From Dehalococcoidia bacterium (GTDB taxonomy: Bacteria > Chloroflexota > Dehalococcoidia > Lucifugimonadales > UBA3495): a stretch of DNA of 64,000 bases. The stretch spans positions 1,865,826 through 1,929,825 of the forward strand of contig OZ253670.1 of the NCBI GenBank assembly GCA_965263395.1, in the 5' to 3' direction. Position 1 is the stretch's first letter; each line of letters starts with the position of its first letter. Shown here one piece after another: positions 2,406-60,923 of this stretch. The translations under genes were made by a program, and so were the position numbers. The notes under the pieces were generated by a model that saw only the letters and a program-made list of their open reading frames with translations, was not told the DNA's origin and ran no database searches.

Positions 2406-4160
2406 ATGAGGATTGAAACCATGACTCCAAGAGATTTCATGACCATGCTCTGGGGGGACCCTCCCCCCGCATCCGTCTACCTCTTCCTCCTGCCCCAGAA
2501 GCGGGCAATCTGGTTCACACACTACGAGAACCTGGACAAATTGTGCAACGCCCACACCGCCATGGAAATCTACACCGGCGGGGGGACCGGGCCCAGGAGC
2601 AACCGGCAGGCCCTCCCCAACCGGCGCCTCCTGCAGGATGAGGTAACCGGCATCACCGGACTCTGGTCCGACATCGACGTGGCCCACGATGTACACCCGA
2701 AGAAGAACCTGCCCCCGACCCTGGAGGCAGCCCTGGAGATCCTGGAGCAGGCCCAGTTCGAGCCCACCATCCTGGTGGACAGCGGCCACGGCATCCAGGC
2801 CTGGTGGCTCTTCGATGAGCCCTGGAATTTCCAGGACACCCAGGAGAGCATGGAAGCCCGGCGCCTCACCCAATGGTGGGGGGGGTACATCGGCTCCCTG
2901 TATGCCGCCGAGGGCTGGAACATCGACTCGGTATACAACCTGGACCGAATCATGCGGGTCCCAGGGACCTTCAACAACAAGGTGAAGAACGACTCGAAGC
3001 CCGTAACGGTCATCCGGAACACCGGCATCCGCTACTCCCGGACGGCCTTCCAAGAACTCATCCCGCCGGACTACCAGCCCAAGACCATCATCAAGGGCAC
3101 CAATGCCGACGGGCAGCCGGTGGGAGCCGAGAACCTGATCCTGGACCCCAAGGCCGAGCCGGACATAATGAAATTCGGTGAGCTCATCGCCGAGGACCCC
3201 CGGTTCCTCCGGAGCTGGCAGGAAAACCGCACCGACTGGGCAGAGGAGGCCGACCGGTCCGCCAGCGCCTACGACCTCTCCCTGGCCAGCTTCGCAGCCA
3301 GAAACGGCTGGAGCGACCAGGAGATCTCCGACCTGCTCATCGCCAAGCGGCGCCGCCACGGGCAGGACCTGAAGCTCAGGGAGAACTACTACGCCAACAC
3401 CATCGCCCGGGCCCGCCATCCAGTGACCGTTGCTCACGCGGAGGAGAGCCTGAAGGAGGCGATGGAGATGGATGAAGAGGACAGCTCCGACGACATCATG
3501 AACGCCCTCAGCATAATGATGGGGATCAGGATCCGAAGGATAGTCAAGTTCATCGGGGACCCGCCCATATTCTGGATGTCCACCGACCAAGGCGATATCA
3601 CCATCGGCAAGGTCGATGGCCTCACCTCCCAGAACCGGTTCATCAACCTGGTGGCCGGCATAACCGGGATCGTCATGCAGCCCTGCAAGTCCGCCCAATG
3701 GCGGGAACGGGTCCAGGCCATTCTCCGCGCCGCGGTCGAAGAGGACGTGGGGGACGCCAGCCATCCGGCCACCGAGACCCGGGCCTGGCTGACCACCTAC
3801 CTTTCGGAACACGCCCCCCTGATCAACATATCCCAGGCCACCATCACCCGAATGCCCTTCATCAGCAACGGCCGGGTCCACATGTTCCTGGAAAGGTTCA
3901 GCCAGTGGGTGGAGCACAGCTGCCACGAGGTGATCAGCACCTTCTCAATGGGCCAGCGGCTGAAGCTGCTCGGGGCCAAGCAGGAGACCATCAACACCAC
4001 CATCAACGGGATCCGCACCACCCGGTCAACCTGGCGGCTCCCCCACGATTTCGATGAATGGGAGCAGATGGCCCAGGAGGAGATGCAAGAGGATATCCAA
4101 GAGGATATCCAAGAGGATATCCAAGAGGATATGCAGGAAGAAGGGGAAGGCAGAGAATGA
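2406..4160 (+). CDS. archaeo-eukaryotic-type primase-polymerase (prim-pol) with C-terminal domain
   Basis: AEP motifs are present: WSDIDV (DxD), SGHGIQAWWLF (sGxGxH-like) and RVPGTFNNK. An alternative start is ATG 2421, which has a GAGGA upstream. The C-terminus carries a QEDI repeat. Confidence 0.8.
   Translation: MRIETMTPRDFMTMLWGDPPPASVYLFLLPQKRAIWFTHYENLDKLCNAHTAMEIYTGGGTGPRSNRQALPNRRLLQDEVTGITGLWSDIDVAHDVHPKKNLPPTLEAALEILEQAQFEPTILVDSGHGIQAWWLFDEPWNFQDTQESMEARRLTQWWGGYIGSLYAAEGWNIDSVYNLDRIMRVPGTFNNKVKNDSKPVTVIRNTGIRYSRTAFQELIPPDYQPKTIIKGTNADGQPVGAENLILDPKAEPDIMKFGELIAEDPRFLRSWQENRTDWAEEADRSASAYDLSLASFAARNGWSDQEISDLLIAKRRRHGQDLKLRENYYANTIARARHPVTVAHAEESLKEAMEMDEEDSSDDIMNALSIMMGIRIRRIVKFIGDPPIFWMSTDQGDITIGKVDGLTSQNRFINLVAGITGIVMQPCKSAQWRERVQAILRAAVEEDVGDASHPATETRAWLTTYLSEHAPLINISQATITRMPFISNGRVHMFLERFSQWVEHSCHEVISTFSMGQRLKLLGAKQETINTTINGIRTTRSTWRLPHDFDEWEQMAQEEMQEDIQEDIQEDIQEDMQEEGEGRE
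4077..4136 (+). repeat. 12-nt tandem repeat gaggatatccaa (3 perfect copies plus 2 variants), in frame
   Basis: Read directly from the sequence. It encodes QEDIQEDIQEDIQEDMQEE at the primase C-terminus. Confidence 0.9.
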
Positions 4161-5848
4161 CCACAACCACCGGGGAGAAGGAGACCCGTCAACCCGGAAG
4201 GCCAGAGGAAGGACTGCCGGAGATCGAGTACCGGGTGATCGGACCTCCCGGCTGTGGCAAGACCACATGGCTGGGCCAGCAGGTCGAAAATGCGGTGGAG
4301 AAGGGCCAGCGGATCCTGATAACATCCCAGACCAGAGCCGCCGCCGCCGAGATAACCGGGCGGCGGCTCCCCATCCCGGACGAGTGCCTGGGAACCCTCC
4401 ATTCGCACTGCTACCACATCCTGGGCAAGCCTGAACTCACCCTGAACCACCTGGAGGAATGGAACAGCGAGAACCCCGCCTTCGCTATCACCATCACCAA
4501 GGGAAATGAGACCCAGCGCCGGATCGAGGGAGATAACCCGGATGCCCAGATAATCCAGACCCCCGGCGACCAGCTCATGGCGGACTACTCAATGGTCCGC
4601 TCCCGGATGGGAGAGGCCTTCAGCAGGATGGCAGAGGCCTCCAACCAGACGGGAGAGGCATCCAGCCTGGTGCAGCAGTTCGGGAGCACCTGGGAGGAGT
4701 GGAAGCAGAAGAACGCCCTCATGGACTTCCAGGACCTAATCGAGATCTGCCTCCGGGAGACCAGCGCCGCACCCGGCAACCCCGACATCATATTCGTGGA
4801 CGAGGCCCAGGACCTGGACTACACCGAGATGAAGCTCATCCGGAAATGGGGGGCCCAGGCCGGCTACCTCATCACCGTGGGAGACCCGGAACAGTGCATC
4901 TACAGCTGGCGGGGCGCCACCCCGGAGGCCTTCATCACTCCCGAACTTCCCCCGGCCCAGAACATGGTCTTGAGCCAGAGCTACCGGGTGCCGCTGGACA
5001 TCCACAACCGGGCCATCTCATGGATCAGCAAGATAGATGGCCGGGACCCAATCCCCTACTACCCCCGGGACCACCCGGGGAAGGTCCGGGAGACCCCCAG
5101 TACCTGGGAGGAGCCCAAGGACGCGGTATCCATCGCCCAGGAACACACGGATGAAGGAAAGTCCGTCATGTTCCTGACCACCTGCGCCTACATGCTCCAG
5201 AACGTCATCAACGAGCTCCGGCAACGCTCAATCCCCTACCACAACCCCTTCCGCCGGAACAACGGCGCCTGGAACCCCCTGGCCAAAAGGGGCAACGCCA
5301 TCACCACCGGGGAACGGATACTGGCCTTCCTCGCACTATCCCAGAATGGGCTGTGGACCGCCCAGGACATCAGGCGCTGGTCCGACGCCCTCACCCTCAG
5401 GAAGCACCTATCCCCGGGTGGACGGAAGGAGATCAAAAGCCTGGTCAACACCCAGGACGGCGGGGTCAGCGCCTACATGATGGAGCGGCTCTTCAGCGAG
5501 GAGCTTCTGAAAGCCGGCCTCACCGGAGACCTGGATTTCTTCCAGGAACACCTGACCGCCGCCAAGCGGGACACCGCCAAGTTTCCCCTGAGCATCGCCA
5601 TGGCCTATGGGCCAAAAGCCCTGGAGGAGCCGCCCAGGACGACCGTTGGCACAATTCACTCCGTCAAGGGAGGCGAGGCCGACGTCGTGGTCATCTTCCC
5701 CGACCTGAGCATGGCCGGCAACAAGGAGTGGGCCGGGACCATCGAACAGCGGGCCGGTATCATCCGGCTCTTCTACGTCGGCATCACCCGATCACGGGAG
5801 ACCCTGGTATTCTGCAGGCCCGCAGGCCGGAACTTCGTGGAGTTCTGA
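4157..5848 (+). CDS. UvrD/Rep/PcrA-like superfamily 1 helicase
   Basis: Motifs GPPGCGKTT (Walker A), FVDEAQD, SQSYRVP and GTIHSVKGGEADVV are present. ATG 4157 overlaps the primase stop (ATGA). The track ORF starts at 4058, but that extension reads the repeat out of frame. Confidence 0.85.
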   Translation: MTTTTGEKETRQPGRPEEGLPEIEYRVIGPPGCGKTTWLGQQVENAVEKGQRILITSQTRAAAAEITGRRLPIPDECLGTLHSHCYHILGKPELTLNHLEEWNSENPAFAITITKGNETQRRIEGDNPDAQIIQTPGDQLMADYSMVRSRMGEAFSRMAEASNQTGEASSLVQQFGSTWEEWKQKNALMDFQDLIEICLRETSAAPGNPDIIFVDEAQDLDYTEMKLIRKWGAQAGYLITVGDPEQCIYSWRGATPEAFITPELPPAQNMVLSQSYRVPLDIHNRAISWISKIDGRDPIPYYPRDHPGKVRETPSTWEEPKDAVSIAQEHTDEGKSVMFLTTCAYMLQNVINELRQRSIPYHNPFRRNNGAWNPLAKRGNAITTGERILAFLALSQNGLWTAQDIRRWSDALTLRKHLSPGGRKEIKSLVNTQDGGVSAYMMERLFSEELLKAGLTGDLDFFQEHLTAAKRDTAKFPLSIAMAYGPKALEEPPRTTVGTIHSVKGGEADVVVIFPDLSMAGNKEWAGTIEQRAGIIRLFYVGITRSRETLVFCRPAGRNFVEF

Positions 5849-6107
5849 CGCTCTCCGCCCGGGTTCGTGGCGCCGGAGCACCGCTTCACAACCGGCCTGG
5901 GGCCCAGGCTTGCCGGTTTCCTGGTCACAGAACCCCGCCGCCAGGAGCGGGAAAAGACAAAACCCCAAGGGGAAGGGGTCCAACATAATCCCCATGTAAA
6001 ACAGGCCCAAGCCAACCATGGAGAGGATGGCAGGCAGGGGCCGGAACCAGAAACCCGGAGGATGGCCTGGAACCAGCGGGGCAACACCGGAAAAGAGGAG
6101 TCGGAAA

Positions 6108-9100
6108 ATGGAGAACGAGGAGCGGAGCAGGAGGATAACCCGGGCCCTCCTGAATTCGGGGATAGCCCGGGAGAACCAGGAGAGCATCCCAAACATCACC
6201 CCCAACGCCAAAACGGTGCTGGAGAGGCGCTACCTGAAGAAGGACCAGGACGGAGCCGCCGAGGCGCCGGACACCATGTTCCGGAGAGTGGCCGAGAACC
6301 TGTCGCAGGCGGACCTGAACTACGGGGCAACCCAGAAGGAGCGGCAGGCCACCGAAGACGAGTTCTTCGACGTCATGCAGAAGCTGGAGCTCCTGCCCAA
6401 CTCACCCACTCTCATGAACGCCGGCCGGGAGCTGCAGCAGCTCTCCGCCTGCTTCGTGCTGCCCATCGACGACGACCTGGACGACATATTCTCCAAGGTC
6501 AAGGAGACCGCCCTCATCCACAAGAGCGGCGGCGGAACCGGGTTCTCCTTCAACCGCCTCCGTCCCAGCGGGGACTTCGTGAAGTCCACCGGCGGCATCG
6601 CCTCCGGGCCCGCCAGCTTCATTCGCGCCTTCGACTCCGCAACCGATGTGGTCAAGCAGGGCGGCACCCGCCGGGGCGCAAACATGGGGATCCTGAACGT
6701 CGACCATCCCGATGTGATGAAGTTCATACGCATGAAGGCCCAGGAGGGGGCGCTTGAGAACTTCAACATCTCCATTGCTGTAAACAAGGAGTTCATGGAA
6801 AAGGTCACCCGGGGGGAGGACTACACCCTCACCAACCCCCGGACCGGGGAGGCAGCCGGCACCCTGAACGCCCGGGAGGTCTTCACCGAGATCGTGGAGC
6901 ACGCCTGGAATACCGGGGACCCCGGGCTCATATTTCTGGACCGGATCAACGAGCAGAACCCCAACCCCCACCTGGGAATGATCGAGTCCACCAACCCCTG
7001 CGTGACCGGGGACACCTGGGTGATGACCCGGGAAGGGCCCCGGCAGGCCCGAAGCCTGGCCGGCAGCCGGCAGACACTCCTGGTCAACGGGGAATTCTTC
7101 CTGACCGGGCCGGAGGGATTCTTCTCCACCGGGATCAAGCCGGTCGTGCGGCTCCGCACCCAGGAGGGCCAGGAGTTGACCCTGACCCAGGACCACCTGG
7201 TGGTCAAGATCATACGCCAGCCCCACGGCAGCGTGGGAATCAGGGCCTGGGCGCCGGCGGGAGAGCTCCGCCCCGGAGACCGGGTGGCGCTGCACGACCA
7301 CCGGTTGGCCCACCGGAAGGGCAACAGCATCCTGCCCATGAGCAGGATCAGCCAGCCGGTGCTGGAGTCTCTCAGAACAACCTTCCAGCCCCGGAACATC
7401 GTCATGGACCCCCGGGAAACATGCCCCTCCATATCGCTGAAGGAACAGGCGCACGGCATGCTGGAGACCGCACAGCGGGAGCTCCTCTACCTGGGAATAC
7501 AGAGCAGGATCCAGGTTACTGCCGGACCGGGAGACCGGGAACTGGTCATCCAGGGTGAATCCCTGGAACGGCTGGCCATCAGGGTCGGGTCGGCCAACCC
7601 GGAGGAACAGCATATCCTTGGAGAGATGGCCCTCCTGGCCAAGGATGCGCCAGGATACCCTGGCCGCGAGACCTACGAGGCAACCGTGGAATCCCTGGAA
7701 CCAGCCGGAGAGGAAGAGGTGTGGGACGTCCAGGTCCCGGGAGTCAATGCCTTCGACGCCAACGGGATCTACGTGCACAACTGCGGCGAGCAGGTACTCG
7801 CTCCCTACGAGTCCTGCAACCTGGGGTCCATCAACCTGGCCCGCATGGTCAGGTTCACCGACCGGGCCGAAATCGACTGGGAAAAGATGGAACGGGTCAT
7901 CCGGACCGGCGTTCACATGCTCGACAACGTGATCGACATGAACGACTACCCCCTGCCGCAGATCGAGGAGGCCAGCAAGAAGAGCAGGCGCATCGGCCTG
8001 GGAGTGATGGGAACCGCGGACTTCCTCATCCAGATGGGGATACGCTATGACTCTGAAGAGGCCCTCAACCTGGCCGGGGAGGTGATGTCCTTCATCCAGA
8101 AACAGGCCCACCAGGCCTCCCACGACCTGATCGGGAACCGGGGGCCCTACCCGGGATTCGAGGGCAGCACCTATACCCGTCCCATGCGGAACACCGCACC
8201 AATCACCATCGCCCCCACCGGCACCATCAGCATCATCGCCGGCGCCTCCAGCGGCATTGAACCCCTCTTCGCCCTTGCCTATACGAGGAACATCATGGAC
8301 CAGACCCGGATGCGGGAGATCAATCCCTACTTCCAGGCAGTGGCCAACAGTATGGACGAGATGGACGAAGAGTTCATGGAAGAGCTCCTGGAGCAGGTTG
8401 CCCAGACCGGAAGCCTGGCGGGGACCAGCGCCCCGGACTGGATGAAGGAGATCTTCCGGGTCTCCCAGGACATCAGCCCGGAGTGGCACGTCCGGATGCA
8501 GGCGGCCTTTCAGGAGCACACCGACAACTCCGTCTCGAAGACGATCAACTTCCCCAACGCCGCCACCCGGGAGGATATCTGGAAAGCCTACATGCTGGCC
8601 CATGAGACCGGCTGCAAGGGCATAACGGTCTACCGCGACGGCAGCAAGGCCGAGCAGGTGTTGAGCACCGGCCAGACCCAGGCATTGAGCGCCGGCCAGA
8701 CCCAGGCGTTGAGCGCCGGCCAAGCCGATCTCCACACGAACGGAAAGCACCCCACCCCCCGGCCCAGGCCCCGCACAATGACGGGCTCAACCAGGAGGGT
8801 CAGGACCGGCCACGGCAACATGTACATCACCATCAACCGGGATGAGGACGGGGAACCCTTCGAGATCTTCAATGCCGTCGGCAAGGCCGGGGGCTGCGAC
8901 TCGGCCCAGATCGAGGCCATCAGCCGGCTGGTCTCCATGGCGCTCCGCTCCAACCTGGACCCCCAGGAGATATCCCGTCAGCTCTACGGCATAACCTGCT
9001 GCCCCGCCTGGGACGAGGGAGTGCTGATCCGCTCCATCCCCGACGGGATCGCCATCGCCCTGAGCGGGAACTGGAAATCCCCGGAGCAGGATGCAGGAGC

Positions 9101-9227
9101 CAGCCACGAGGACATCCTCCTCATGAACGGCCGGCAGAAATGCCCGGACTGCAACTCACCCACCCACTTCCAGGAAGGCTGTCAGGCCTGCACCAACCTG
9201 GTCTGCGGCTGGAACCGGTGCAGCTAG
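6108..9227 (+). CDS. nrdJ: class II (adenosylcobalamin-dependent) ribonucleotide reductase, intein-containing
   Basis: The N-terminus reads TPNAKTVLERRYLKKD. The active-site motif STNPC...GEQ is split by an intein. The C-terminal Cys cluster is CPDC...CQAC...C. GAGGAG lies 8 nt upstream of ATG 6108 (track start is 6018). Confidence 0.9.
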   Translation: MENEERSRRITRALLNSGIARENQESIPNITPNAKTVLERRYLKKDQDGAAEAPDTMFRRVAENLSQADLNYGATQKERQATEDEFFDVMQKLELLPNSPTLMNAGRELQQLSACFVLPIDDDLDDIFSKVKETALIHKSGGGTGFSFNRLRPSGDFVKSTGGIASGPASFIRAFDSATDVVKQGGTRRGANMGILNVDHPDVMKFIRMKAQEGALENFNISIAVNKEFMEKVTRGEDYTLTNPRTGEAAGTLNAREVFTEIVEHAWNTGDPGLIFLDRINEQNPNPHLGMIESTNPCVTGDTWVMTREGPRQARSLAGSRQTLLVNGEFFLTGPEGFFSTGIKPVVRLRTQEGQELTLTQDHLVVKIIRQPHGSVGIRAWAPAGELRPGDRVALHDHRLAHRKGNSILPMSRISQPVLESLRTTFQPRNIVMDPRETCPSISLKEQAHGMLETAQRELLYLGIQSRIQVTAGPGDRELVIQGESLERLAIRVGSANPEEQHILGEMALLAKDAPGYPGRETYEATVESLEPAGEEEVWDVQVPGVNAFDANGIYVHNCGEQVLAPYESCNLGSINLARMVRFTDRAEIDWEKMERVIRTGVHMLDNVIDMNDYPLPQIEEASKKSRRIGLGVMGTADFLIQMGIRYDSEEALNLAGEVMSFIQKQAHQASHDLIGNRGPYPGFEGSTYTRPMRNTAPITIAPTGTISIIAGASSGIEPLFALAYTRNIMDQTRMREINPYFQAVANSMDEMDEEFMEELLEQVAQTGSLAGTSAPDWMKEIFRVSQDISPEWHVRMQAAFQEHTDNSVSKTINFPNAATREDIWKAYMLAHETGCKGITVYRDGSKAEQVLSTGQTQALSAGQTQALSAGQADLHTNGKHPTPRPRPRTMTGSTRRVRTGHGNMYITINRDEDGEPFEIFNAVGKAGGCDSAQIEAISRLVSMALRSNLDPQEISRQLYGITCCPAWDEGVLIRSIPDGIAIALSGNWKSPEQDAGASHEDILLMNGRQKCPDCNSPTHFQEGCQACTNLVCGWNRCS
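6999..7781 (+). other. intein (261 codons) inserted in the NPC/GEQ catalytic motif of NrdJ
   Basis: The intein starts with Cys (CVTGDTWV). Block B is LTLTQDHLV. It ends ...GIYVHN and is followed by the extein Cys of CGEQ. The central LLYLGIQSRI...LERLAIRVG segment looks like a degenerate LAGLIDADG half-domain. Confidence 0.85.
8661..8726 (+). repeat. 24-nt tandem repeat (about 2.7 copies), in frame within nrdJ
   Basis: The unit ttgagcRccggccagacccaggcR encodes LSTGQTQA LSAGQTQA LSAGQA. Confidence 0.9.
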
Positions 9228-14029: not shown

Positions 14030-14484
14030 CCAGCAACACCCTGGGGAGAAAGACCCAGTGGGCACTGGCATCGGCCCCAATCATTGGAATGGCCACCGCC
14101 GGACTGGCGGCATGGGGACTCCGTGGGGACGAGCCCCAGGTAATACCAATAGCCGCCGTGCTGGCGGGGATCGGCATCACCGCCGCTCCCGGAATACTCC
14201 TGGCCGCCAGCAAAACAGCAGGACTCATCAGGATGCAGCGGGGAATACTGGCCAAGAGCGGCCTATTCAAGACCACCTTCCTGGGATACATGATCGCCAA
14301 CGCAGTCATGTTCCCCACCGTCCTGGCCCTCCGGACATGGGCCGGACACGAGACCCAGCCAGTTGAGACGGCACTGGCCCTCACCGTGCTCCCAGTCTGC
14401 GGCACGGCAGCCTGGCTGATCTTCAGGAACATCAGAGCCGAGAGGAGAAAACCCACCATGCAGAAGGAAAAGCAAGATGGCTGA
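14026..14484 (+). CDS. integral membrane protein
   Basis: ATGA overlap at 14026. Several TM helices. Confidence 0.6.
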   Translation: MTSNTLGRKTQWALASAPIIGMATAGLAAWGLRGDEPQVIPIAAVLAGIGITAAPGILLAASKTAGLIRMQRGILAKSGLFKTTFLGYMIANAVMFPTVLALRTWAGHETQPVETALALTVLPVCGTAAWLIFRNIRAERRKPTMQKEKQDG

Positions 14485-15343
14485 GAATACAAAGATCGAG
14501 TGGACCACTCACACATTTAACCCGTGGATCGGTTGTCAGGTCGTCAGCCCAGGCTGCGATAACTGCTATGCCGAGACCCTCTCCAACCGGAGGGGCTGGA
14601 CCCAGTGGGGACCGGAGGGAGAACGGGTCCGGACCAAGCCAGCAACCTGGAAGCAGCCACTGACCTGGGACCGGAAAGCCCGGGCCGCCGGTGAGCGGCA
14701 CAAGGTATTCTGCGCCAGCCTGGCCGATGTCTTCGACAACCAGGCCCCAACGGAACCCACAGATGCCCGGGAAGACCTGTTCGAGCTCATCCGCCAAACC
14801 CCGAACCTGGACTGGCAGCTCCTGACCAAGCGGCCCCAGAATTTCGCAAGGTTCCTGCCCGAAGATTGGGGAGAAACCGGCTACCCCAACGTCTGGCTGG
14901 GGGTCAGCGCCGAGAACCAGGAGGAGTACGACCGCCGGTGGCGCCTCTTGGCAGAAACCCCCGCGGCCGTCCGGTTCATCAGCTACGAACCGGCCCTGGG
15001 CCCGGTATCGCTCCGTGGTTTCAACCAACACCCGGACTGGTTGATCTGGGGCGGCGAGTCCGGGCCGGGGTGCCGTCCCATGCAGGCCCAATGGGCCCGG
15101 GACATCACCAGGGAATGCGTCGAGCTCGAGATTCCCGTGTTCGGCAAGCAGTGGGGCAGCTACAACAGCAACCCCCTGGTGACCGAACAGCAGTACTCAC
15201 TCAGTCAGGCGGAGCTCCACGACCCCCGGACCAACGGCAAGGGCGGAGCCCTCCTGGACGGGAGACTGTGGCGCCAGTTCCCTCTGTCTGCCGGCCTGCT
15301 GCTGGGGCAGACCGGCAGACAGAGGGAAAAACATGAACCTTGA
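14477..15343 (+). CDS. phage Gp37/Gp68 family protein (DUF5131)
   Basis: The characteristic N-terminus TKIEWTTHTFNPWIGC..SPGCDNCYAE is present. Confidence 0.8.
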   Translation: MAENTKIEWTTHTFNPWIGCQVVSPGCDNCYAETLSNRRGWTQWGPEGERVRTKPATWKQPLTWDRKARAAGERHKVFCASLADVFDNQAPTEPTDAREDLFELIRQTPNLDWQLLTKRPQNFARFLPEDWGETGYPNVWLGVSAENQEEYDRRWRLLAETPAAVRFISYEPALGPVSLRGFNQHPDWLIWGGESGPGCRPMQAQWARDITRECVELEIPVFGKQWGSYNSNPLVTEQQYSLSQAELHDPRTNGKGGALLDGRLWRQFPLSAGLLLGQTGRQREKHEP

Positions 15344-17626: not shown

Positions 17627-17795
17627 ACGACCGCCGGCAACCATCCAGGATGGCCGAAGGCAGAACTTCGAAATGGCCTCACTGTCCGGAGACCGGATGG
17701 ACCGGACCTGACCCAGGCCAACCCCATCTTCGCCAAGATCCGGCAGGGGTGACCCCCCAGCCGGGAAAAACAGAAGTCAAAAAGGAGAACGCCGA

Positions 17796-18080
17796 ATGGC
17801 AGGAACAGTGAACCAGGTCATCCTCATGGGACGGCTCGGCAACGACCCGGAGATACGCTACACCCAGGGAGGAACCGCCCTGGCCAACGCCAGGATGGCC
17901 ACCGACCGGTACCGGGCCGGGCAGGATCCCCAGACCGGCTGGCACACCATAGCCGCCTGGGGGAAGGCCGCCGAGATCCTGGCCGAACGCGCCCACAAGG
18001 GGGACCTGGTCCACATCGTGGGAAGAATCGTCAACAATTCCTGGACCGGTGACGACGGCCAGAAACGGGAACGCACCTAG
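17796..18080 (+). CDS. ssb: single-stranded DNA-binding protein, OB-fold part ending at an in-frame amber codon
   Basis: The sequence MAGTVNQVILMGRLGNDPEIRYTQGGTALANARMAT...WHTIAAWGKAAE...GDLVHIVGRI is a typical SSB. AAGGAG precedes the start. TAG at 18078-18080. Confidence 0.85.
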   Translation: MAGTVNQVILMGRLGNDPEIRYTQGGTALANARMATDRYRAGQDPQTGWHTIAAWGKAAEILAERAHKGDLVHIVGRIVNNSWTGDDGQKRERT

Positions 18081-18296
18081 ATCCACACCAACAGCATAGT
18101 CCCCCTGGGCCGGCCGGGCAGCGCCAGCCAGAACGGCGCCAGCCAGAAACCGGAGTCCCATGAACCGGAGTCCCATGAACCGGAGTCCCATGAACCGGAG
18201 TCCCATGAACCGGAGTCCCATGAACCGGAATCCCAGGAACCGGAGTCCCATGAACCGGAGTCCCATGACATCCACAGCCCGGATATCCCATTCTGA
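18081..18296 (+). other. in-frame continuation of ssb beyond the TAG: end of OB fold, repeat linker and DIPF tip
   Basis: The same frame reads IHTNSIVPLGRPGSASQNGASQK(PESHE)n...DIHSPDIPF and then TGA at 18294-18296. The ORF track misses it because it has no start codon. Confidence 0.75.
18150..18269 (+). repeat. 15-nt tandem repeat ccggagtcccatgaa, 8 copies (2 variants)
   Basis: Read directly from the sequence. It encodes (PESHE)n in the ssb frame. Confidence 0.95.
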
Positions 18297-18307
18297 GCCG
18301 CATCAAC

Positions 18308-19072
18308 ATGGGAGGACAGTTGCAACAGTCAAAAAGGCAGAACCCCTACCTTCACCCACCGCCCGCCGGATACCATGCCGCCGCACGGCATGGGAAGGAT
18401 GCGATACGGGAAGCCCAGAAGGCCCAGGCAGCCATCCAGAACCTACCCAGGCAACCCAGCCCAGAGATCCTGGAACGGATGCTCATCGAGGAAGCCCTGG
18501 CCTCATCCCACATCGAGGGAGAGTTCAGGGAATCCAAGATACTGCTCCTCCGGGACGCCCTCCGGGCATTCATAAATACCCCCATCACATCCACCACCCT
18601 CCTCCAGCTCCACGCCTGGGCGATGCAGGAACAAGAACAGGCCCAGCCGGGCCGGTACCGCTCCATCCCCGTCACAGTGGGACCGCACCGGCCTCCGGAC
18701 CCCGTATTCGTGCCATCCCTCATGGATCAGCTGCACCGCTACATCCAGGAGAGCCAGGACCCACCGGTGGTGCGGGCCACCTGGGCCCACCTGATATTCG
18801 AGACCATCCATCCCTTCGTAGACGGCAACGGACGGACCGGACGCGCCATCATCCAGGCAATAATCGGCAGCCCGCTGCCGGTCAGCACCCACATACTCCA
18901 GCACCGGCACGAGTACTACCAGCTCTTCCAGGAAGGCGGGCCGGACCGGTGGGTGTGCTGGATATCCAGGGCAATCATCGAACAGGCCCAGCGCTGCCAG
19001 AGCTACCAGAGCTACCAGAGCTACCAGAGCTACCAGTGCTACCAGACCTGCCCAGAAGGGGAAGCAAAATGA
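18308..19072 (+). CDS. Fic-domain protein (AMPylase family)
   Basis: The Fic motif HPFVDGNGRTGR is present. SSHIEG upstream matches the (S/T)xxxE(G/N) inhibitory-helix motif. Confidence 0.85.
   Translation: MGGQLQQSKRQNPYLHPPPAGYHAAARHGKDAIREAQKAQAAIQNLPRQPSPEILERMLIEEALASSHIEGEFRESKILLLRDALRAFINTPITSTTLLQLHAWAMQEQEQAQPGRYRSIPVTVGPHRPPDPVFVPSLMDQLHRYIQESQDPPVVRATWAHLIFETIHPFVDGNGRTGRAIIQAIIGSPLPVSTHILQHRHEYYQLFQEGGPDRWVCWISRAIIEQAQRCQSYQSYQSYQSYQCYQTCPEGEAK
18998..19045 (+). repeat. 9-nt tandem repeat cagagctac, 4 copies plus 1 variant
   Basis: It encodes QSYQSYQSYQSYQCYQ at the Fic C-terminus. Confidence 0.9.
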
Positions 19073-19491
19073 TCCAGCACTACCGGCGCCAGGACGCTGG
19101 GGCGGACCCCCAGAAAAGCGGGGACGCGCCCCGATGGGTCTGCGGCCGGTTGGAGAAACCGGAGATCACCATCGACCCTCCCCTGACCCCGCAGGACATC
19201 CAGGAAGAAGACTGCCGGAACTGCGTCCGGCGCATCCAGGAGACCTGGGAGAAGAAGCACAAGACGGAAGCTCCCCCCATCCGGCACATCAGGAAGGAGC
19301 GGGACCTCCCCTCCACAATCTGCGGCAAGAATACCCTGGGCATGAACCCCCCGGCCCTGCCCTACCCAGAGCAACTGCCAACACCCGGGCCAGGCTGGTG
19401 CCAGATGTGCCGCAACCTGTGGGAACGCCAGGAAAAATACCGCCAGGAAAAATACCGCCAGGAAAAGGCCCGGGCCCAAGGGGCCGGCTGA
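19069..19491 (+). CDS. hypothetical Cys-containing protein
   Basis: ATGA overlap with the Fic stop. This is the C-terminal part of track ORF 18160..19491, whose upstream part is an out-of-frame reading. Confidence 0.5.
   Translation: MIQHYRRQDAGADPQKSGDAPRWVCGRLEKPEITIDPPLTPQDIQEEDCRNCVRRIQETWEKKHKTEAPPIRHIRKERDLPSTICGKNTLGMNPPALPYPEQLPTPGPGWCQMCRNLWERQEKYRQEKYRQEKARAQGAG
19426..19468 (+). repeat. 15-nt tandem repeat cgccaggaaaaatac (2 copies plus a partial)
   Basis: It encodes RQEKYRQEKYRQEK. Confidence 0.9.
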
Positions 19492-31885: not shown

Positions 31886-32356
31886 ATGCCGGCAGAAAGG
31901 AACGGAGCCAAGATCGCCAAGGGACTGGAATTCTGGCCCGACGACCAGGAGAAGGGCCGGTGGCGCATCATCGGAGGGGGGTGGAACACCAACGGCTTCG
32001 GGGACGCCGGCCAGCTCACCGAACTCGCCCTAGCCATCCTGGAGATCGTGAACGACAACCGGGAGCTCCCCGCCGTAGACCCCGAGCAGGAACACGGGGC
32101 GCTCTCCTACATCACAACCTCCCCGCGGATCCCCCCGGGAGAGGATGCCCGGGTCGGGGGAGCCCTCATCGCCAAGGGAGTGAGCATGATCCGGGATGCC
32201 AGGCAGAAGGCCTGGGAGCAGGGACGTCCGGAAGACCTGGGAGTCAGATTCAGGGACGAGTGGACCAGGCTGCCCTTCCGAATCGAAGTCGAGAGCGAAA
32301 CCCCGGACCACGAACCCCCGGACCACGAACCCCCGGACCACGAACCCCCGGAATAA
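31886..32356 (+). CDS. hypothetical protein
   Basis: 156-aa ORF preceded by tgaggagaagcaga. Confidence 0.5.
   Translation: MPAERNGAKIAKGLEFWPDDQEKGRWRIIGGGWNTNGFGDAGQLTELALAILEIVNDNRELPAVDPEQEHGALSYITTSPRIPPGEDARVGGALIAKGVSMIRDARQKAWEQGRPEDLGVRFRDEWTRLPFRIEVESETPDHEPPDHEPPDHEPPE
32301..32352 (+). repeat. 15-nt tandem repeat ccccggaccacgaac, 3 copies plus a partial
   Basis: It encodes PDHEPPDHEPPDHEPPE at the C-terminus. Confidence 0.9.
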
Positions 32357-32377
32357 CAACCCAACAAGGACACAACC

Positions 32378-34110: not shown

Positions 34111-34326
34111 ATGGCCAAGACCTATACCAACAAATATGGAGAGGAGTACCGGAAGGTGACTCTCAACCTGAGCGCCAAGGCGATCGACCATGTGCAGGCT
34201 GCGGCCAGGAGGAGTTTCCGGAACATCTCCGCTGAGGTTGAAATGATGATCCAGGAGCATATCTCTAGGACAGGCGAAGCGAGCGCCGGCTCCAACGAAG
34301 CTGGCCCCAAAAAGGAAATGACCTGA
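34111..34326 (+). CDS. ribbon-helix-helix (CopG/Arc-like) protein, putative antitoxin/regulator
   Basis: KVTLNLSAKAIDHVQAAARRSFRNISAEVEMMIQEHI fits a beta-strand followed by two helices. GGAGGA lies upstream. Confidence 0.55.
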   Translation: MAKTYTNKYGEEYRKVTLNLSAKAIDHVQAAARRSFRNISAEVEMMIQEHISRTGEASAGSNEAGPKKEMT

Positions 34327-34844
34327 TGAGCCAAAAGCAGACCCTGGTGACCCGGCGGTTCCCATCATTTCAGAGCCTGCGCACCTTTCCCTGGAAACCC
34401 GGATTCCAGTGGGTGCAGACCGCACTCCAAGCCGCCGACCTCATCAACCAGCCCCACGAGGACTACCCCCAGAGAGTGCCGGATACCGCCCAAGCCATCC
34501 AGTCCATGGCCGGACGAACCCCGGGGATGCCGGCAAACCGGGAGTGCCTCCAAGTCCACCGGGACATCTTCCCCGACCTGGCCGGAGCCGGAAGCTGGCG
34601 GGAAACCGACGTGATGGTCATGTTCCACCGGCCCCCGGACCACCGGCTTCTGCCCAAGCTGATGGACGAACTCGAACTGGTCTACCAGGAGGAATGCTCA
34701 ATCCAACGGCTGGAACAATGGTACCTGGACTTCGAGACAATCCACCCATTCCTGGACGGAAACGGCAGGGTCGGCGGGGTCATGACCGCCGCCATATCCC
34801 ACGCAATGAACCCAGGGCAGGGATACCTGGCCCCGGAACGATAG
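34326..34844 (+). CDS. Fic/Doc-family protein
   Basis: The motif HPFLDGNGRVGG is present. The start abuts the RHH gene stop (TGATG). Confidence 0.8.
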   Translation: MSQKQTLVTRRFPSFQSLRTFPWKPGFQWVQTALQAADLINQPHEDYPQRVPDTAQAIQSMAGRTPGMPANRECLQVHRDIFPDLAGAGSWRETDVMVMFHRPPDHRLLPKLMDELELVYQEECSIQRLEQWYLDFETIHPFLDGNGRVGGVMTAAISHAMNPGQGYLAPER

Positions 34845-40068: not shown

Positions 40069-40200
40069 AAATGGGGTACCCAATGAGAACCAAGACCGCC
40101 AGAGAGACGGTGATCCTCGTTGGCCTGGCCGGCCTGGGAACCGCGGCCATTGCCTGGCTCACCACCCACAGACGGGGGAACCCACAGACGGGAGACTTCA

Positions 40201-40590
40201 ATGACCGAGACAGCCAACCGGGTAATGGCAACACTGAGCGGACGGCGGACAGTAGGCGTACAGGCAGCATGTGGACACAGGGTATACGGCCAAGCCAATG
40301 ATGACCACACCGCCGAGCGGCCCCGGATCGCTGAGGTCAAACAACAGGCGAGATCCCTCCCCTGTGAGCGTTGCGCTCTGGAGCCGGTCCAGACCCCGGT
40401 GAGACCAGCCGGCCAGCCCACGGCCACTCCCCAGCAACTCAAGTATGCACGCTCTCTCATCCGCAAGCACCTTGGTGAGTACACCGCACACGGGCAGATA
40501 GCATCGGAGACGCTGCTGGTGGAGATCACAAAGCAGGATTGCAAGCGATTGATCGACCATCTGCTGACACTGGACAACCAGGGCCTTTAG
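40201..40590 (+). CDS. hypothetical protein
   Basis: ATG 40201 lies inside track ORF 40120..40590. Confidence 0.45.
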   Translation: MTETANRVMATLSGRRTVGVQAACGHRVYGQANDDHTAERPRIAEVKQQARSLPCERCALEPVQTPVRPAGQPTATPQQLKYARSLIRKHLGEYTAHGQIASETLLVEITKQDCKRLIDHLLTLDNQGL

Positions 40591-40749
40591 GAGCGCCTGG
40601 AATACCAAGCCATTGATCCCCTGACCCACACAGACGATGAAATCCTCACTCACAGTAGAGCCGCCCTCCCCGGGGCCCCGTGCGGCTCTACTCAGGAACG
40701 AGGAGCGGCGCATGGCGTCACGACCACGAACAGAGAGTAGGGAACAGTT

Positions 40750-41121
40750 ATGGGTGCAGGAATAACACTGGTCTGCGGGGGACGGGACTTCCATGACATG
40801 ACGACGCTCAGGATGGTGCTGGACGAGGTCAGTCCGGAAAAAATAGTCCACGGAGCCGCCAAGGGCGCCGACAGCATGGCAGGACGATATGCCCGGGAAC
40901 GGGGGATAACCTGCCGGGAGTTCCCGGTAACCTGGCGGAGGAACGGCGTATACAACCCCAGGGCCGCCTTCGACCGGAACCAGCAGATGCTCGACGAAGG
41001 CCAGCCGGACCTGGTCGTAGCCTTCCCGGGAGGAGGCGGCACCCGGGACATGGTCTCCAGGGCCAGGAAAGACGGTTTCACCGTCTGGACCGTCACGGAG
41101 TCGGGGAAGATCCTTCGCTGA
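40750..41121 (+). CDS. SLOG-superfamily DUF2493 protein
   Basis: The sequence reads LVCGGRDFHD...IVHGAAKGADSMAGRYA...AAFDRNQQML...VVAFPGGGGTRDMV. Confidence 0.7.
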   Translation: MGAGITLVCGGRDFHDMTTLRMVLDEVSPEKIVHGAAKGADSMAGRYARERGITCREFPVTWRRNGVYNPRAAFDRNQQMLDEGQPDLVVAFPGGGGTRDMVSRARKDGFTVWTVTESGKILR

Positions 41122-41139
41122 CCCCAGCCCCCCGGTTTA

Positions 41140-41170
41140 CGGCAGCCCAGGCCCACACCCTGGGCTGCCG
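41140..41170 (+). terminator. hairpin cggcagcccagg-cccacac-cctgggctgccg
   Basis: A 12-bp perfect stem lies 19 nt after the stop at 41121. Confidence 0.5.
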
Positions 41171-41566
41171 GCGCCCCCTCCTGCTCGTGAGCAAGGTGCG
41201 GGGCCGCCTTCCCAGATAACGGACGGAACCGCAAAATCCTGGCCGCCCAATATGAACGACCCCCCGGGAGGGAAGTGGTGAGCCCTCCCTGGGAACCCCC
41301 AGCTGAACCCACTGGCAGCCCCCCGGGGCCTCATGGCCCCGCCGGCTGGACTACGGTCCAGCACCCCACCAGGAGGCACAGCTATCAGGCAGCCCGCAGA
41401 ACTACGGACCAGAACCGGGAGGCGCCTCCTCCAGCCAACCGGTCAGCCGGAGCCAAGCGGGCTGCAAACCCCCCATCCCACTCGGAATCCCAGCCCAGAG
41501 TTGGACAACGCCAACATCCGCCAGGAATGTTAAAATCCCAAGGAGGAGCCACCAGAAGGAGGAGAA

Positions 41567-41770
41567 ATGGAAGCCCAGGACTACACCCACATTGAAATCG
41601 AGGGGGTCCTGACCCCCAACATGATCGCCTGCACCAGAACCCCGGTGCCGCTGGCCACCCACCTGCCCACCACCAAGACTCTGGATAACGCCACCTGCCC
41701 CCCATGCCGGATGGCCATGATCCACCGCGCCCGGCAGTTCATCGACGGCTCAAGACCCACCGCAGCCTGA
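41567..41770 (+). CDS. small hypothetical protein
   Basis: Two AAGGAGG motifs lie upstream. 67 aa. Confidence 0.45.
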   Translation: MEAQDYTHIEIEGVLTPNMIACTRTPVPLATHLPTTKTLDNATCPPCRMAMIHRARQFIDGSRPTAA

Positions 41771-48402: not shown

Positions 48403-49216
48403 CCAGATCCAACAGGTCGGGGCGAGCCACTATCCGGTGGGCCAGACCCCCGGGAAGCTGGTCAATCCCCTCATGCTCCAAATCCTGCAAGAACTCATCC
48501 TCCAGGAGAAGATCAGGCCCAAAGACAGCCTCATACAGGCCGTCTTCCACATCATCCCCACGGCCCCAAAGGCCTGTCAGAGGGTCCCGGATATAGAGAT
48601 CAGTCCCAATCTGAATGATCTCTATCTCCATGCTGAAACCACCGAATCCCACCGTCATCAAGGCACGCTGACGATCCGGAGCCACCACCTCGCCCTCCAC
48701 ACCAACGATGCCAGCATCAACGATATCAGCATCACCGAACTCGGCCCCAAGTCCATCCGCGGTGATGGTCATCACATAGCGGTAGGAACCCGCATCTTCC
48801 ATCCCCAAAAACGCATCACCCAGGATGGCCCGGGCATCCCAGCCGCCTGGAGGAGGCTCGGGAACCTGATCATCAGGAACCTGATCATCAGGGTCATCCG
48901 GCGACAGGGTGGCTGAAAGCGCCGGAACAACAGCCGGCTCGGGATCCAGAGCCAGCACCAGAGTGGGCGAAGGCGCCGGTGATGGGACAGGTCCCATCAC
49001 CTCAACCGGATCACCGGAGGAAAACACGGTCACGGGTTCACCCAACTCCCCAGGGGTCTGGGATGGAAATTCTGAAGAAGGCTCAGCCGGGGACATGGGA
49101 ACTCCAGCCCCAGGAGATTCAGGACTCTCCCCGATATCACCAGTCAAAACCTCCGGACTGCTGCTGCAGGCAGCAAGCAGAAAAAGCATGGGAACCAGCA
49201 GGACAAAAAACCTCAT
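48368..49216 (-). CDS. lipoprotein (signal peptide with LLAAC lipobox), Pro/Glu/Ser-rich linker
   Basis: The N-terminus is MRFFVLLVPMLFLLAACSSS. A 15-nt in-frame duplication at 48861-48890 gives PDDQVPDDQV. Confidence 0.65.
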   Translation of the reverse strand: MRFFVLLVPMLFLLAACSSSPEVLTGDIGESPESPGAGVPMSPAEPSSEFPSQTPGELGEPVTVFSSGDPVEVMGPVPSPAPSPTLVLALDPEPAVVPALSATLSPDDPDDQVPDDQVPEPPPGGWDARAILGDAFLGMEDAGSYRYVMTITADGLGAEFGDADIVDAGIVGVEGEVVAPDRQRALMTVGFGGFSMEIEIIQIGTDLYIRDPLTGLWGRGDDVEDGLYEAVFGPDLLLEDEFLQDLEHEGIDQLPGGLAHRIVARPDLLDLGEGPLDLGGGG

Positions 49217-49303
49217 GACAAGAAAACTCCAGTGAAAACTTGCAGCCCGAGGCCGAGCTCAGCAACTCAACCGCAGTTGAGCAAAAGGGTACAGGGAAGA
49301 GAT

Positions 49304-49387
49304 GGCTCAGGGGTTTGGCCGCTGCGCCTCTGAACCAACGCAGCGGCCAAACCCCTGAGCCCAGGCGGTTGAGCTCAACCGCCTGGG
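49304..49387. promoter_or_regulatory. 23-bp perfect-stem hairpin abutting a 28-nt perfect palindrome in the divergent intergenic region
   Basis: ggctcaggggtttggccgctgcg (49304-49326) pairs with cgcagcggccaaacccctgagcc (49339-49361). The palindrome cccaggcggttgagctcaaccgcctggg is at 49360-49387. The CTCAACCGC motif occurs 3 times. Confidence 0.6.
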
Positions 49388-49556
49388 CCCGGGCGCCAGA
49401 TCCCGAAGGGCAAGATCCCGAACTGCCAGGAAAATCTGGAGCTGCTCGACAAGCTGGCCATAACGAGCTCTTGAGAGCTTGAGAACCACAGAACCCAGGG
49501 AAACCCTCGGGATACACCACCGGAAAACAAGAACCGGAAAAAGGAGAAAGGCGAAA

Positions 49557-60140: not shown

Positions 60141-60923
60141 ATGGTGAATGAGACCACCAGAAAGATGATGACCGGCCAGCTCGCAGAGCTGAGAGAGAAA
60201 GAGAAAGCAGCCACCGGGCTGGCAGAATACTTCCAGAACCAGATACTGAAACGGGAGTATTCATTGAGCCAGCTGGGAATCCCGATCCCCGATCACAACG
60301 ACAATCATCCCCGAAACCCTGAGGGGGAAACACCCCGAACCACCGGCGAAGAGACAGCCAGCCGGGAAGCCGGGAACCAGGAAGCCGAGAACCAGGAAGC
60401 CGAGAACCAGGAAGCCGAGAACCGGGAAGTCGAGAACCAGGAAGTCGAGAACCGAACCGCCACGGCAACGCCGGAGCCAAACGGTACCAAAACAAACTAC
60501 GCTCATGTCCCCGGACACCGGATGCAACAGCTACGCTACATGAACGGCGACGACATGACAGGGGCGGAGCTCCGGGAACTCGAACTCATGGAACAGCTCC
60601 AGGCCTGCCCCAACCAGAGCAGCATGATGCGAACCATCGCCGCCAGGACGGGTGACCGGAGCCAGGAAAGCTACCGGATACAGATCAGCAGCGCAGCCAT
60701 CCACATCATCGGCGCAGGACTGACCAAGATGGTGGACGCCAGGAACCTGGGAAACCACCTCCGGTACAGCATCCTGTCCAAAGACGCAGACCACTGGATC
60801 GTGGCGAGCAACAAGAACGATGCCCAGTTCTTCCCCGAAGGGAAACCCGTCACGGACGATTCCCCTCCGGTGGAACCCAGGGACAACCACCAGCCCCCTC
60901 ACAACGGCATGATGAACCTGTGA
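60141..60923 (+). CDS. unknown-function protein, paralog of 49557..50252
   Basis: AAAGGAGGAG lies upstream. The conserved C-terminus reads ACPNQSSMMRTIAARTG...YRIQISSAAIHIIGAG...ARNLGNHLRY...SNKNDAQFFP. Confidence 0.6.
   Translation: MVNETTRKMMTGQLAELREKEKAATGLAEYFQNQILKREYSLSQLGIPIPDHNDNHPRNPEGETPRTTGEETASREAGNQEAENQEAENQEAENREVENQEVENRTATATPEPNGTKTNYAHVPGHRMQQLRYMNGDDMTGAELRELELMEQLQACPNQSSMMRTIAARTGDRSQESYRIQISSAAIHIIGAGLTKMVDARNLGNHLRYSILSKDADHWIVASNKNDAQFFPEGKPVTDDSPPVEPRDNHQPPHNGMMNL
60366..60455 (+). repeat. 15-nt tandem repeat gaagccgagaaccag, 6 copies (variants)
   Basis: It encodes EAGNQEAENQEAENQEAENREVENQEVEN and is absent from the paralog at 49557. Confidence 0.9.

What the first reader, a model, noticed from the sequence alone, without database searches (positions are those of the whole stretch)
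17796..18296. ssb is interrupted by a single in-frame TAG, yet the downstream frame still encodes the linker and canonical DIPF tip
The OB-fold ORF stops at TAG 18078-18080 (…GDDGQKRERT*). By eye this position aligns with the near-invariant Glu of the SSB T-E-V/I strand.

The same frame then runs 71 more sense codons to TGA 18294-18296 without a start codon: IHTNSIVPLGRPGSASQNGASQK-(PESHE)x8-DIHSPDIPF. The tail ends in the hallmark SSB C-terminal D-I-P-F partner-binding tip, so the ancestral gene is 17796..18296 with one amber codon.

Possible explanations are a very recent GAG>TAG or CAG>TAG nonsense mutation, regulated readthrough or suppression giving tail-less and full-length SSB, or a consensus error. 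A tail-less SSB would bind ssDNA but could not recruit partner proteins, so the ratio of the two forms would matter biologically.
Basis: seen in the sequence. Interest (0 to 1): 0.75.

Follow-up and report, generated by a model that had tools for sequence, protein, structure and literature searches.

The report
ssb gene broken by one nonsense change
A mobile-element copy of the single-stranded-DNA-binding protein gene carries one GAG-to-TAG change inside its DNA-binding fold, which is most likely an ordinary recent knockout or a sequencing error and not a regulated recoding signal.

Summary
An SSB gene starts at 17796, hits TAG at 18078-18080, and continues in frame for 71 codons to TGA 18294-18296, ending in DIPF. 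The three closest orthologues (45-70% identity, syntenic) are uninterrupted and have Glu encoded by GAG at that codon, so the change is one G>T transversion. The sequence after the TAG is homologous SSB: IHTNSIVPLGRPG is 12/13 identical to P0002.

There is no sign that the stop is programmed:
- It is not shared with any orthologue.
- The window and the relatives' loci hold no tRNA, and the window has no Rfam hit.
- No unusual RNA structure follows the TAG.
- TAG terminates about 22 other genes here, including RNR, ligase and the SNF2 helicase.
- Reading TAG as sense would add at most 2.8% coding sequence.

The TAG lies inside the OB fold, at E. coli Glu-101. It removes about two-thirds of the last beta-strand, so the 94-aa product is probably a misfolded fragment and not a tail-less SSB.

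Most likely this is a recent inactivating mutation in an accessory ssb (about 0.6). A consensus error (about 0.25) cannot be excluded without reads. Interest is low.

The parts
17782..17787 (+). Shine-Dalgarno-like AAGGAG, 8 nt upstream of the ssb ATG
   Evidence: Read directly from the sequence.
17796..18077 (+). ssb codons 1-94: the N-terminal five-sixths of the OB fold
   Evidence: Pfam PF00436, 88.4 bits, profile 1-94 of 104. Aligned to E. coli SSB, it keeps W49/H50 (=W55/H56), W55 (=F61) and W83 (=W89) in the precursor numbering of the alignment.
18078..18080 (+). In-frame TAG at codon 95. Orthologues have GAG (Glu), so this is a single G>T transversion.
   Evidence: Codon-level comparison with L001-L004, protein alignment, equivalence to E. 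coli Glu-101.
18081..18110 (+). Codons 96-105 (IHTNSIVPLG): the rest of the last OB-fold beta-strand, stranded downstream of the stop
   Evidence: The Pfam match extends to profile 101 of 104 when the stop is read through. The AF2 model of orthologue P0002 has a strand at residues 90-105. IHTNSIVPLGRPG is 12/13 identical to P0002.
18111..18266 (+). Disordered linker, including the 15-bp x 8.1 tandem repeat (18148-18268) that encodes PESHE units
   Evidence: TRF. The orthologue's equivalent region has pLDDT below 50. The relatives have a shorter P/Q/N/S-rich linker with no repeat.
18267..18293 (+). C-terminal tip DIHSPDIPF (DIPF = 18282-18293)
   Evidence: Translation. It aligns with PDIAF, PDLPF and DDLPF in the orthologues and with DDDIPF of E. 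coli SSB (the sequence used).
18294..18296 (+). Ancestral ssb stop codon, TGA
18308..19072 (+). Fic/DOC-family gene, 11 nt after the ssb TGA. It is absent from the relatives. Its stop overlaps the next gene's start (ATGA at 19069-19072). It is context only and could suffer a polar effect from the ssb stop.
   Evidence: Pfam PF02661, 77.3 bits. No tblastn match anywhere in L001-L004.

Best explanation
The TAG is a recent, lineage-specific nonsense substitution (GAG to TAG, Glu-95) in the accessory ssb gene of a large one-strand mobile or integrated element that lies on a 4.7-Mb contig.

Translation ends at the TAG under the standard code. This gives a 94-residue fragment that lacks about two-thirds of the last beta-strand of the OB barrel, the disordered linker and the DIPF tip. 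Such a fragment is expected to be unstable or non-functional, so the gene is effectively knocked out. It is either a young pseudogene or a variant segregating in the population.

Shown: the stop, its single-base origin, its position in the fold, its absence from orthologues, and the normal use of TAG as a terminator in the element.

Inferred: that the fragment is non-functional, that the element tolerates the loss (for example because a cellular SSB is present), and that the event is recent (one disabling change only, no frameshifts, downstream homology intact).
For: 1. Origin. The orthologues in L001-L004 all have GAG where the window has TAG, in an otherwise conserved RER(T/M)-E-IHT motif.
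2. Synteny. The order DnaN, two small genes, SSB, then UDG is conserved, so these are true orthologues.
3. Position. The stop is inside the fold: the Pfam profile reaches only 94 of 104 before it, it equals E. coli Glu-101, and the model strand spans residues 90-105.
4. TAG is a working terminator. 22 + strand genes in my gene map end in TAG. These include the NAD-ligase, whose PHROG match covers profile 5-651 of 656 and ends at the stop, plus RNR and the SNF2 helicase. The other two same-frame TAG junctions are each followed by an SD and an ATG.
5. No suppression machinery or signal. There are 0 tRNAs in the window or in L001-L004, 0 Rfam matches, and the RNA fold z-score after the stop is -0.04.
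6. Recency. There is only one disabling change, and the downstream frame keeps 12/13 identity with P0002.
7. Assembly quality. Long genes across the window are intact (1069, 934, 754 and 687 aa). This shows a low indel (frameshift) error rate in the assembly and, by inference, good overall consensus quality.
Against: - No reads are available, so a consensus error cannot be excluded. One related contig in the same kind of assembly is labelled 2x coverage, which shows that low-coverage contigs exist in such datasets.
- Only 64 kb of a 4.72-Mb contig is visible. A CUA-anticodon suppressor tRNA or a second ssb elsewhere could not be checked.
- No near-identical copy of the element was found in any collection, so the age and population frequency of the TAG are unknown.
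- The ssb gene keeps a good SD and lies in an otherwise intact operon.
Confidence: 0.6

Rival explanations
1. Sequencing or assembly consensus error. The real codon is GAG and the gene is an intact 166-aa SSB.
For: - The change is a single base at a strongly conserved codon.
- Everything else in the gene is intact: SD, aromatic DNA-binding residues, frame, linker and tip.
- The protein cluster has one member on one contig, so there is no independent confirmation.
- Related assemblies include a contig labelled 2x coverage.
Against: - The window shows no other broken genes. Very long ORFs and full-length domain matches argue for a low error rate.
- A 4.72-Mb contig implies decent coverage.
- Only a small fraction of random substitutions create a stop codon (my estimate from the codon table, not a tool result).
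Confidence: 0.25
2. Functional partial suppression or leaky readthrough. A host or element amber-suppressor tRNA, or near-cognate decoding, yields some full-length SSB. The TAG then sets a low SSB dose, or sets the level of downstream Fic expression through translational coupling or polarity.
For: - The downstream frame is fully intact.
- Belinky et al. 2021 (PMC7918605) argue that in-frame stops with readthrough are widespread and can be transiently advantageous in prokaryotes.
- A Fic/DOC gene, unique to this lineage, starts 11 nt after the ssb TGA with no clear upstream SD. A polar effect on it is conceivable.
Against: - The stop is not shared by any orthologue, which is the criterion Belinky et al. 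use to separate signal from artefact.
- No tRNA, no Rfam hit and no RNA structure after the stop.
- Efficient TAG suppression would extend 22 other genes.
- Fic has a possible SD of its own: GGAGG at 18311-18315, 4 nt before an in-frame TTG at 18320 (read).
Confidence: 0.1
3. Element-wide stop-codon reassignment (TAG as sense, code-15-like), as in recoded phages.
For: One homology-supported in-frame TAG. Prophages with recoded stops in standard-code hosts have been described (Borges et al.).
Against: - Reading TAG as sense adds at most 2.8% coding sequence, against the threshold of more than 10%.
- GC is 62%, not low.
- TAG is the proper end of 22 genes.
- No suppressor tRNA in the window.
- The interrupted gene is a replication gene, not a late or lysis gene.
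- The ancestral residue is Glu, whereas the only known TAG reassignment in phages is to Gln.
Confidence: 0.02

Closest known systems
Bacterial homotetrameric-type SSB (Pfam PF00436; E. coli SSB, PDB 1EYG/1EQQ; Thermus/Deinococcus SSBs 2FXQ/1SE8 were the best PDB hits)
   Same: It has one OB fold with conserved aromatic and His residues, a disordered linker, and a C-terminal D-I-P-F tip.
   Different: It is interrupted by TAG at the Glu equivalent to E. coli Glu-101. The linker carries a lineage-specific 15-bp x 8 repeat encoding PESHE. The gene is encoded by a mobile-element replication module and not by the rpsF-ssb-rpsR context (that context is from my own knowledge).
Nonsense-mutated genes, young pseudogenes and transient in-frame stops in prokaryotic genes (Belinky et al. 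2021, PMC7918605)
   Same: It has a single in-frame stop in an otherwise conserved gene, and the downstream frame is intact.
   Different: The stop is not orthologously shared with any other genome, so it fails that paper's filter for non-artefactual, possibly read-through stops.
Stop-codon-recoded phages and prophages (TAG to Gln, code 15; Borges et al., doi 10.1101/2021.08.26.457843)
   Same: There is an in-frame TAG in a gene of a mobile element that lives in a presumably standard-code host.
   Different: There is one TAG only, in a replication gene. GC is high, no suppressor tRNA was seen, TAG is a frequent true terminator, and the ancestral residue is Glu, not Gln.

Membership tests
SSB family (PF00436, bacterial type) | OB-fold domain matching the SSB profile above the curated cut-off | tested here: met
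   88.4 bits for the 94-aa ORF and 94.6 bits for the read-through product, against a cut-off of 26. 34 PDB SSB sequences matched with E below 1e-5.
SSB family (PF00436, bacterial type) | Complete OB barrel, including the last beta-strand, encoded in one uninterrupted ORF | tested here: not met
   TAG at codon 95. The profile is covered only to position 94 of 104. The last strand is residues 90-105 in the orthologue model.
SSB family (PF00436, bacterial type) | Disordered linker followed by an acidic or hydrophobic C-terminal tip ending D-(I/L)-P-F | tested here: met
   It is present in the frame downstream of the TAG (...SPDIPF) and aligns with the tips of P0002-P0004. The orthologue tail has pLDDT below 50. 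It would be translated only if the TAG is read through.
SSB family (PF00436, bacterial type) | Conserved ssDNA-stacking aromatic residues and the tetramer-interface His (E. coli W54, H55, F60, W88 in mature numbering, from my own knowledge) | tested here: met
   W49, H50, W55 and W83 align with the corresponding E. coli residues in the BLASTP alignment.
Stop-codon-recoded (code 15) phage or prophage | Marked gain in coding density when TAG is read as sense (more than 10% for contigs of 5-100 kb) | tested here: not met
   The upper bound is a 2.8% gain. Only the ssb extension looks like coding sequence (criterion).
Stop-codon-recoded (code 15) phage or prophage | Element-encoded suppressor tRNA (CUA anticodon) | tested here: not met
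   0 tRNAs in the window and 0 in the relatives' loci. No Rfam hits. The rest of the element and genome is not visible. Borges et al. detect such tRNAs in only about 40% of TAG-recoded phages.
Stop-codon-recoded (code 15) phage or prophage | TAG depleted as a true terminator, with recoded stops concentrated in late, structural or lysis genes | tested here: not met
   22 + strand genes end in TAG. The single interrupted gene belongs to a replication module.
Programmed or maintained translational readthrough | The stop codon is conserved at the orthologous position in diverged relatives | tested here: not met
   GAG in all four orthologous loci. No closer relatives were found in any collection.
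Programmed or maintained translational readthrough | A stimulatory RNA structure or context 3' of the stop | tested here: not met
   MFE -28.1 kcal/mol against a shuffle mean of -27.97, z = -0.04.
Pyrrolysine (UAG) decoding | pylTSBCD genes and TAG at positions not aligned to a standard residue | tested here: inconclusive
   The TAG aligns with a conserved Glu encoded by GAG, and no tRNA or Pyl-type gene appeared among the annotated window genes. The rest of the genome cannot be inspected.

The most novel reading that the evidence does not exclude
The amber codon is maintained and not accidental. Low-level suppression or leaky termination would yield a trickle of full-length SSB. At the same time, premature termination 216 nt upstream of the tightly abutting, lineage-specific Fic/DOC gene would uncouple or attenuate that gene's expression. 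The single TAG would then act as a dosage or polarity valve for a toxin-like gene newly inserted into the replication operon.
Probability: 0.04. Interest if true: 0.6.

Novelty: already known. Interest (0 to 1): 0.15.

Why it matters
If the TAG is real, it only shows that this copy of a large, poorly characterised mobile element has lost its own SSB. That is consistent with the gene being dispensable when a host SSB is present, or with the first steps of element decay. For annotation, the locus should be called a disrupted or pseudo ssb spanning 17796-18296, not a 94-aa SSB. It carries no evidence for a new recoding mechanism. The case would become interesting only if reads confirm the T and a suppressor tRNA or full-length protein is found.

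Tried and rejected
1. Genome-wide TAG reassignment. A frame-aware scan of in-frame stops found TGA, TAA and TAG alike between same-frame neighbours. The two other same-frame TAG junctions (32696, 35694) are normal gene ends followed by an SD and an ATG. TAG-as-sense gains at most 2.8%. Rejected.

2. A suppressor tRNA or other RNA. ARAGORN on the window and on L001-L004 and Rfam on the window found nothing.

3. A stimulatory RNA structure after the stop. None was found.

4. A near-identical copy of the element, to see whether it has GAG or TAG.
- Exact-protein look-ups for ssb and three neighbours found nothing.
- Megablast against phage records found nothing.
- Alignment-based scans of GTDB genomes, IMG/VR and JGI metagenomes returned only distant SSBs of 52% identity or less, mostly from Dehalococcoidia and Acidobacteriota.
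This route is exhausted.

5. A second, compensating ssb in the window. None was found.

6. Internal re-initiation to make a separate C-terminal peptide. There is no ATG, GTG or TTG in frame between 18081 and 18293.

7. CAG>TAG origin. Rejected, because the orthologues have GAG.

8. My first gene map was crude. It missed the UvrD gene at 4058-5848 and picked the wrong frame for the gene after Fic. The tblastn matches at 19051-19452 and the ATGA overlap seen indicate a start at 19069.

Full report
**Observation**

The sequence is as described.
- An ATG at 17796 is preceded by AAGGAG at 17782-17787.
- It opens a 94-codon ORF that ends at TAG 18078-18080.
- The same frame continues for 71 sense codons, with no ATG, GTG or TTG, to TGA 18294-18296.
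- The conceptual product ends ...DIHSPDIPF.
- The linker contains a 15-bp tandem repeat in 8.1 copies at 96% identity, 18148-18268. It encodes six PESHE units, one PESQE and one PESHD.

An open 71-codon frame is not remarkable by itself in 62% GC DNA; my estimate from the stop frequencies is a chance of about 0.27. Homology across the stop is what makes it significant.
- The Pfam SSB match grows from profile positions 1-94 to 1-101 of 104, and from 88.4 to 94.6 bits, when the stop is read through.
- Full-length orthologues align over the whole product.

**What the relatives show**

A search of 5.8 billion proteins returned only four relatives besides the window's own 94-aa ORF. These are P0002 and P0003 (146 aa, 100% query coverage), P0004 (129 aa) and a distant P0005. 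By alignment, P0002, P0003 and P0004 are 70%, 61% and 45% identical to the read-through product.

In the alignment, the TAG column is Glu in P0002-P0004 within a conserved RER(T/M)-E-IHT motif. The 13 residues after the stop (IHTNSIVPLGRPG) are 12/13 identical to P0002. The C-terminal tips are PDIAF, PDLPF and DDLPF.

At the DNA level, all four orthologous loci (L001-L004) have GAG where the window has TAG. The change is therefore a single G>T transversion.

The loci are syntenic, so these are true orthologues in the same kind of element. The shared order is DUF5131, DnaN beta-clamp, two small genes, SSB, then UDG.

No closer relative exists in any collection I could search.
- Exact-protein look-ups of ssb and three neighbours found nothing.
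- Phage GenBank megablast found nothing.
- Scans of GTDB genomes, IMG/VR and JGI metagenomes gave only SSBs of 52% identity or less.

The stop is thus lineage-specific. Its age and population frequency cannot be assessed.

**Where the stop falls in the protein**

The TAG corresponds to E. coli SSB Glu-101 in precursor numbering, in the TTE|VVVN strand. An AlphaFold model of the intact orthologue P0002 has the same numbering up to residue 108, and its pLDDT is about 84 in this region.
- Residues 90-105 form the last beta-strand of the OB barrel.
- Residues 109-146 are disordered.

The solved SSB core constructs that matched all extend past the equivalent point. The 94-aa product therefore lacks about two-thirds of the last barrel strand as well as the linker and tip. 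It should not be viewed as a tail-less but DNA-binding SSB. I infer that it folds poorly and is non-functional; this was not tested.

**Is the stop programmed?**

Every test I could run says no.
1. It is not conserved in orthologues. This is the criterion Belinky et al. use to separate meaningful in-frame stops from artefacts (PMC7918605).
2. The window has no tRNA gene and no Rfam match. The relatives' loci have no tRNA.
3. The RNA after the stop folds no better than shuffled controls (z = -0.04).
4. TAG is a normal terminator here. 22 + strand genes in my GC3-based map end in TAG. They include the RNR, the SNF2 helicase and the NAD-ligase, whose PHROG match (profile 5-651 of 656) ends at the stop.
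5. The two other places where TAG separates same-frame coding regions (32696, 35694) are ordinary gene boundaries with an SD and an ATG just downstream.
6. Reading all TAGs as sense would add at most 2.8% coding sequence. Borges et al. use a threshold of more than 10%, and they also report low GC, recoding concentrated in late or lysis genes, and only TAG-to-Gln reassignment. Here GC is 62%, the gene is a replication gene and the ancestral residue is Glu.

**Context**

The whole window is essentially a one-strand module for replication and nucleotide metabolism. It contains:
- RNR with an intein and a TSCPD domain
- a UvrD-like helicase
- two SPFH/Band-7 genes
- DUF5131, DnaN, SSB and UDG
- a DnaJ-domain protein
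- DNA methyltransferase-like genes
- DUF6166
- an SNF2 helicase
- an NAD-ligase

No virion genes were recognised. The window's protein is recorded on a 4.72-Mb contig, so the element is probably integrated in, or assembled with, a chromosome. The window holds no second ssb.

Directly downstream of ssb, 11 nt after its TGA, lies a Fic/DOC gene (18308-19072). It has no counterpart in L001-L004, and its stop overlaps the next gene's start. A polar effect of the ssb stop on Fic is conceivable but speculative. Fic also has a possible SD of its own and an in-frame TTG start at 18320.

**Verdict**

The most likely explanation (about 0.6) is a recent, real GAG>TAG nonsense mutation that inactivates an accessory, element-borne ssb. 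It is one disabling change in an otherwise pristine gene. I infer that the loss is tolerated because a cellular SSB exists.

A consensus error (about 0.25) cannot be excluded without reads. The absence of any other broken gene in 64 kb argues for a clean assembly.

Functional suppression or leaky readthrough is possible but unsupported (about 0.1). Element-wide recoding is effectively excluded for this window (about 0.02).

This is an ordinary phenomenon in a well-known gene family. The locus should be annotated as a disrupted ssb spanning 17796-18296. Interest is low (0.15).

Noticed in passing
window 18308-19072 (and 34326-34844): A Fic/DOC-family gene sits 11 nt after the ssb stop, and its own stop overlaps the next gene's start (ATGA at 19069-19072). 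It is absent from all four orthologous loci, so it is a lineage-specific insertion into the replication operon. A second Fic-domain gene lies at 34326-34844.
   Followed up: partly
window, about 30 arrays, e.g. 4073-4132, 8655-8722, 18148-18268, 18988-19046, 32296-32362, 60365-60453: Short tandem repeats with periods that are multiples of three (9, 12, 15, 21, 24, 30 bp; 15 bp is the commonest) are unusually frequent inside coding regions of this element. The ssb PESHE array is the largest. The Fic gene ends in a QSY x 6.6 array. This suggests element-wide slippage that generates repeat-containing protein linkers.
   Followed up: partly
window 6018-9227: The ribonucleotide reductase large subunit (1069 aa) has its barrel domain matched in two stretches, with a below-cut-off Intein_splicing match (30.2 bits against a cut-off of 35.8) at residues 368-588 and a C-terminal TSCPD domain. 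It is probably an intein-containing RNR.
   Followed up: no
window 1-64000; L002-L004: All recognised genes across the 64 kb lie on one strand, and no virion genes were recognised. The modules include DnaN, SSB, UDG, ligase, RNR, helicases and methyltransferases. The relatives add Prok_Ub/E2/JAB/ThiF (ubiquitin-like conjugation) genes and a TnpB-like gene. They lie on contigs of 2.0 to 4.7 Mb. This is a large, uncharacterised mobile or integrated element family with very few database relatives.
   Followed up: partly
L001 2511-3805: In the relative L001, the DUF5131 gene is split into 243-aa and 90-aa calls, and a segment matching window 14561-14749 is duplicated. The window's DUF5131 gene (14477-15343) is intact. 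Different copies of this element family therefore carry different gene disruptions.
   Followed up: no
window 40069-41703 and 48917-49478: These are the largest stretches without a convincing + strand gene in my GC3-based map (852-bp and 562-bp gaps, with a weak minus-strand ORF at 40198-40851). They may be regulatory regions, origins or degraded genes.
   Followed up: no
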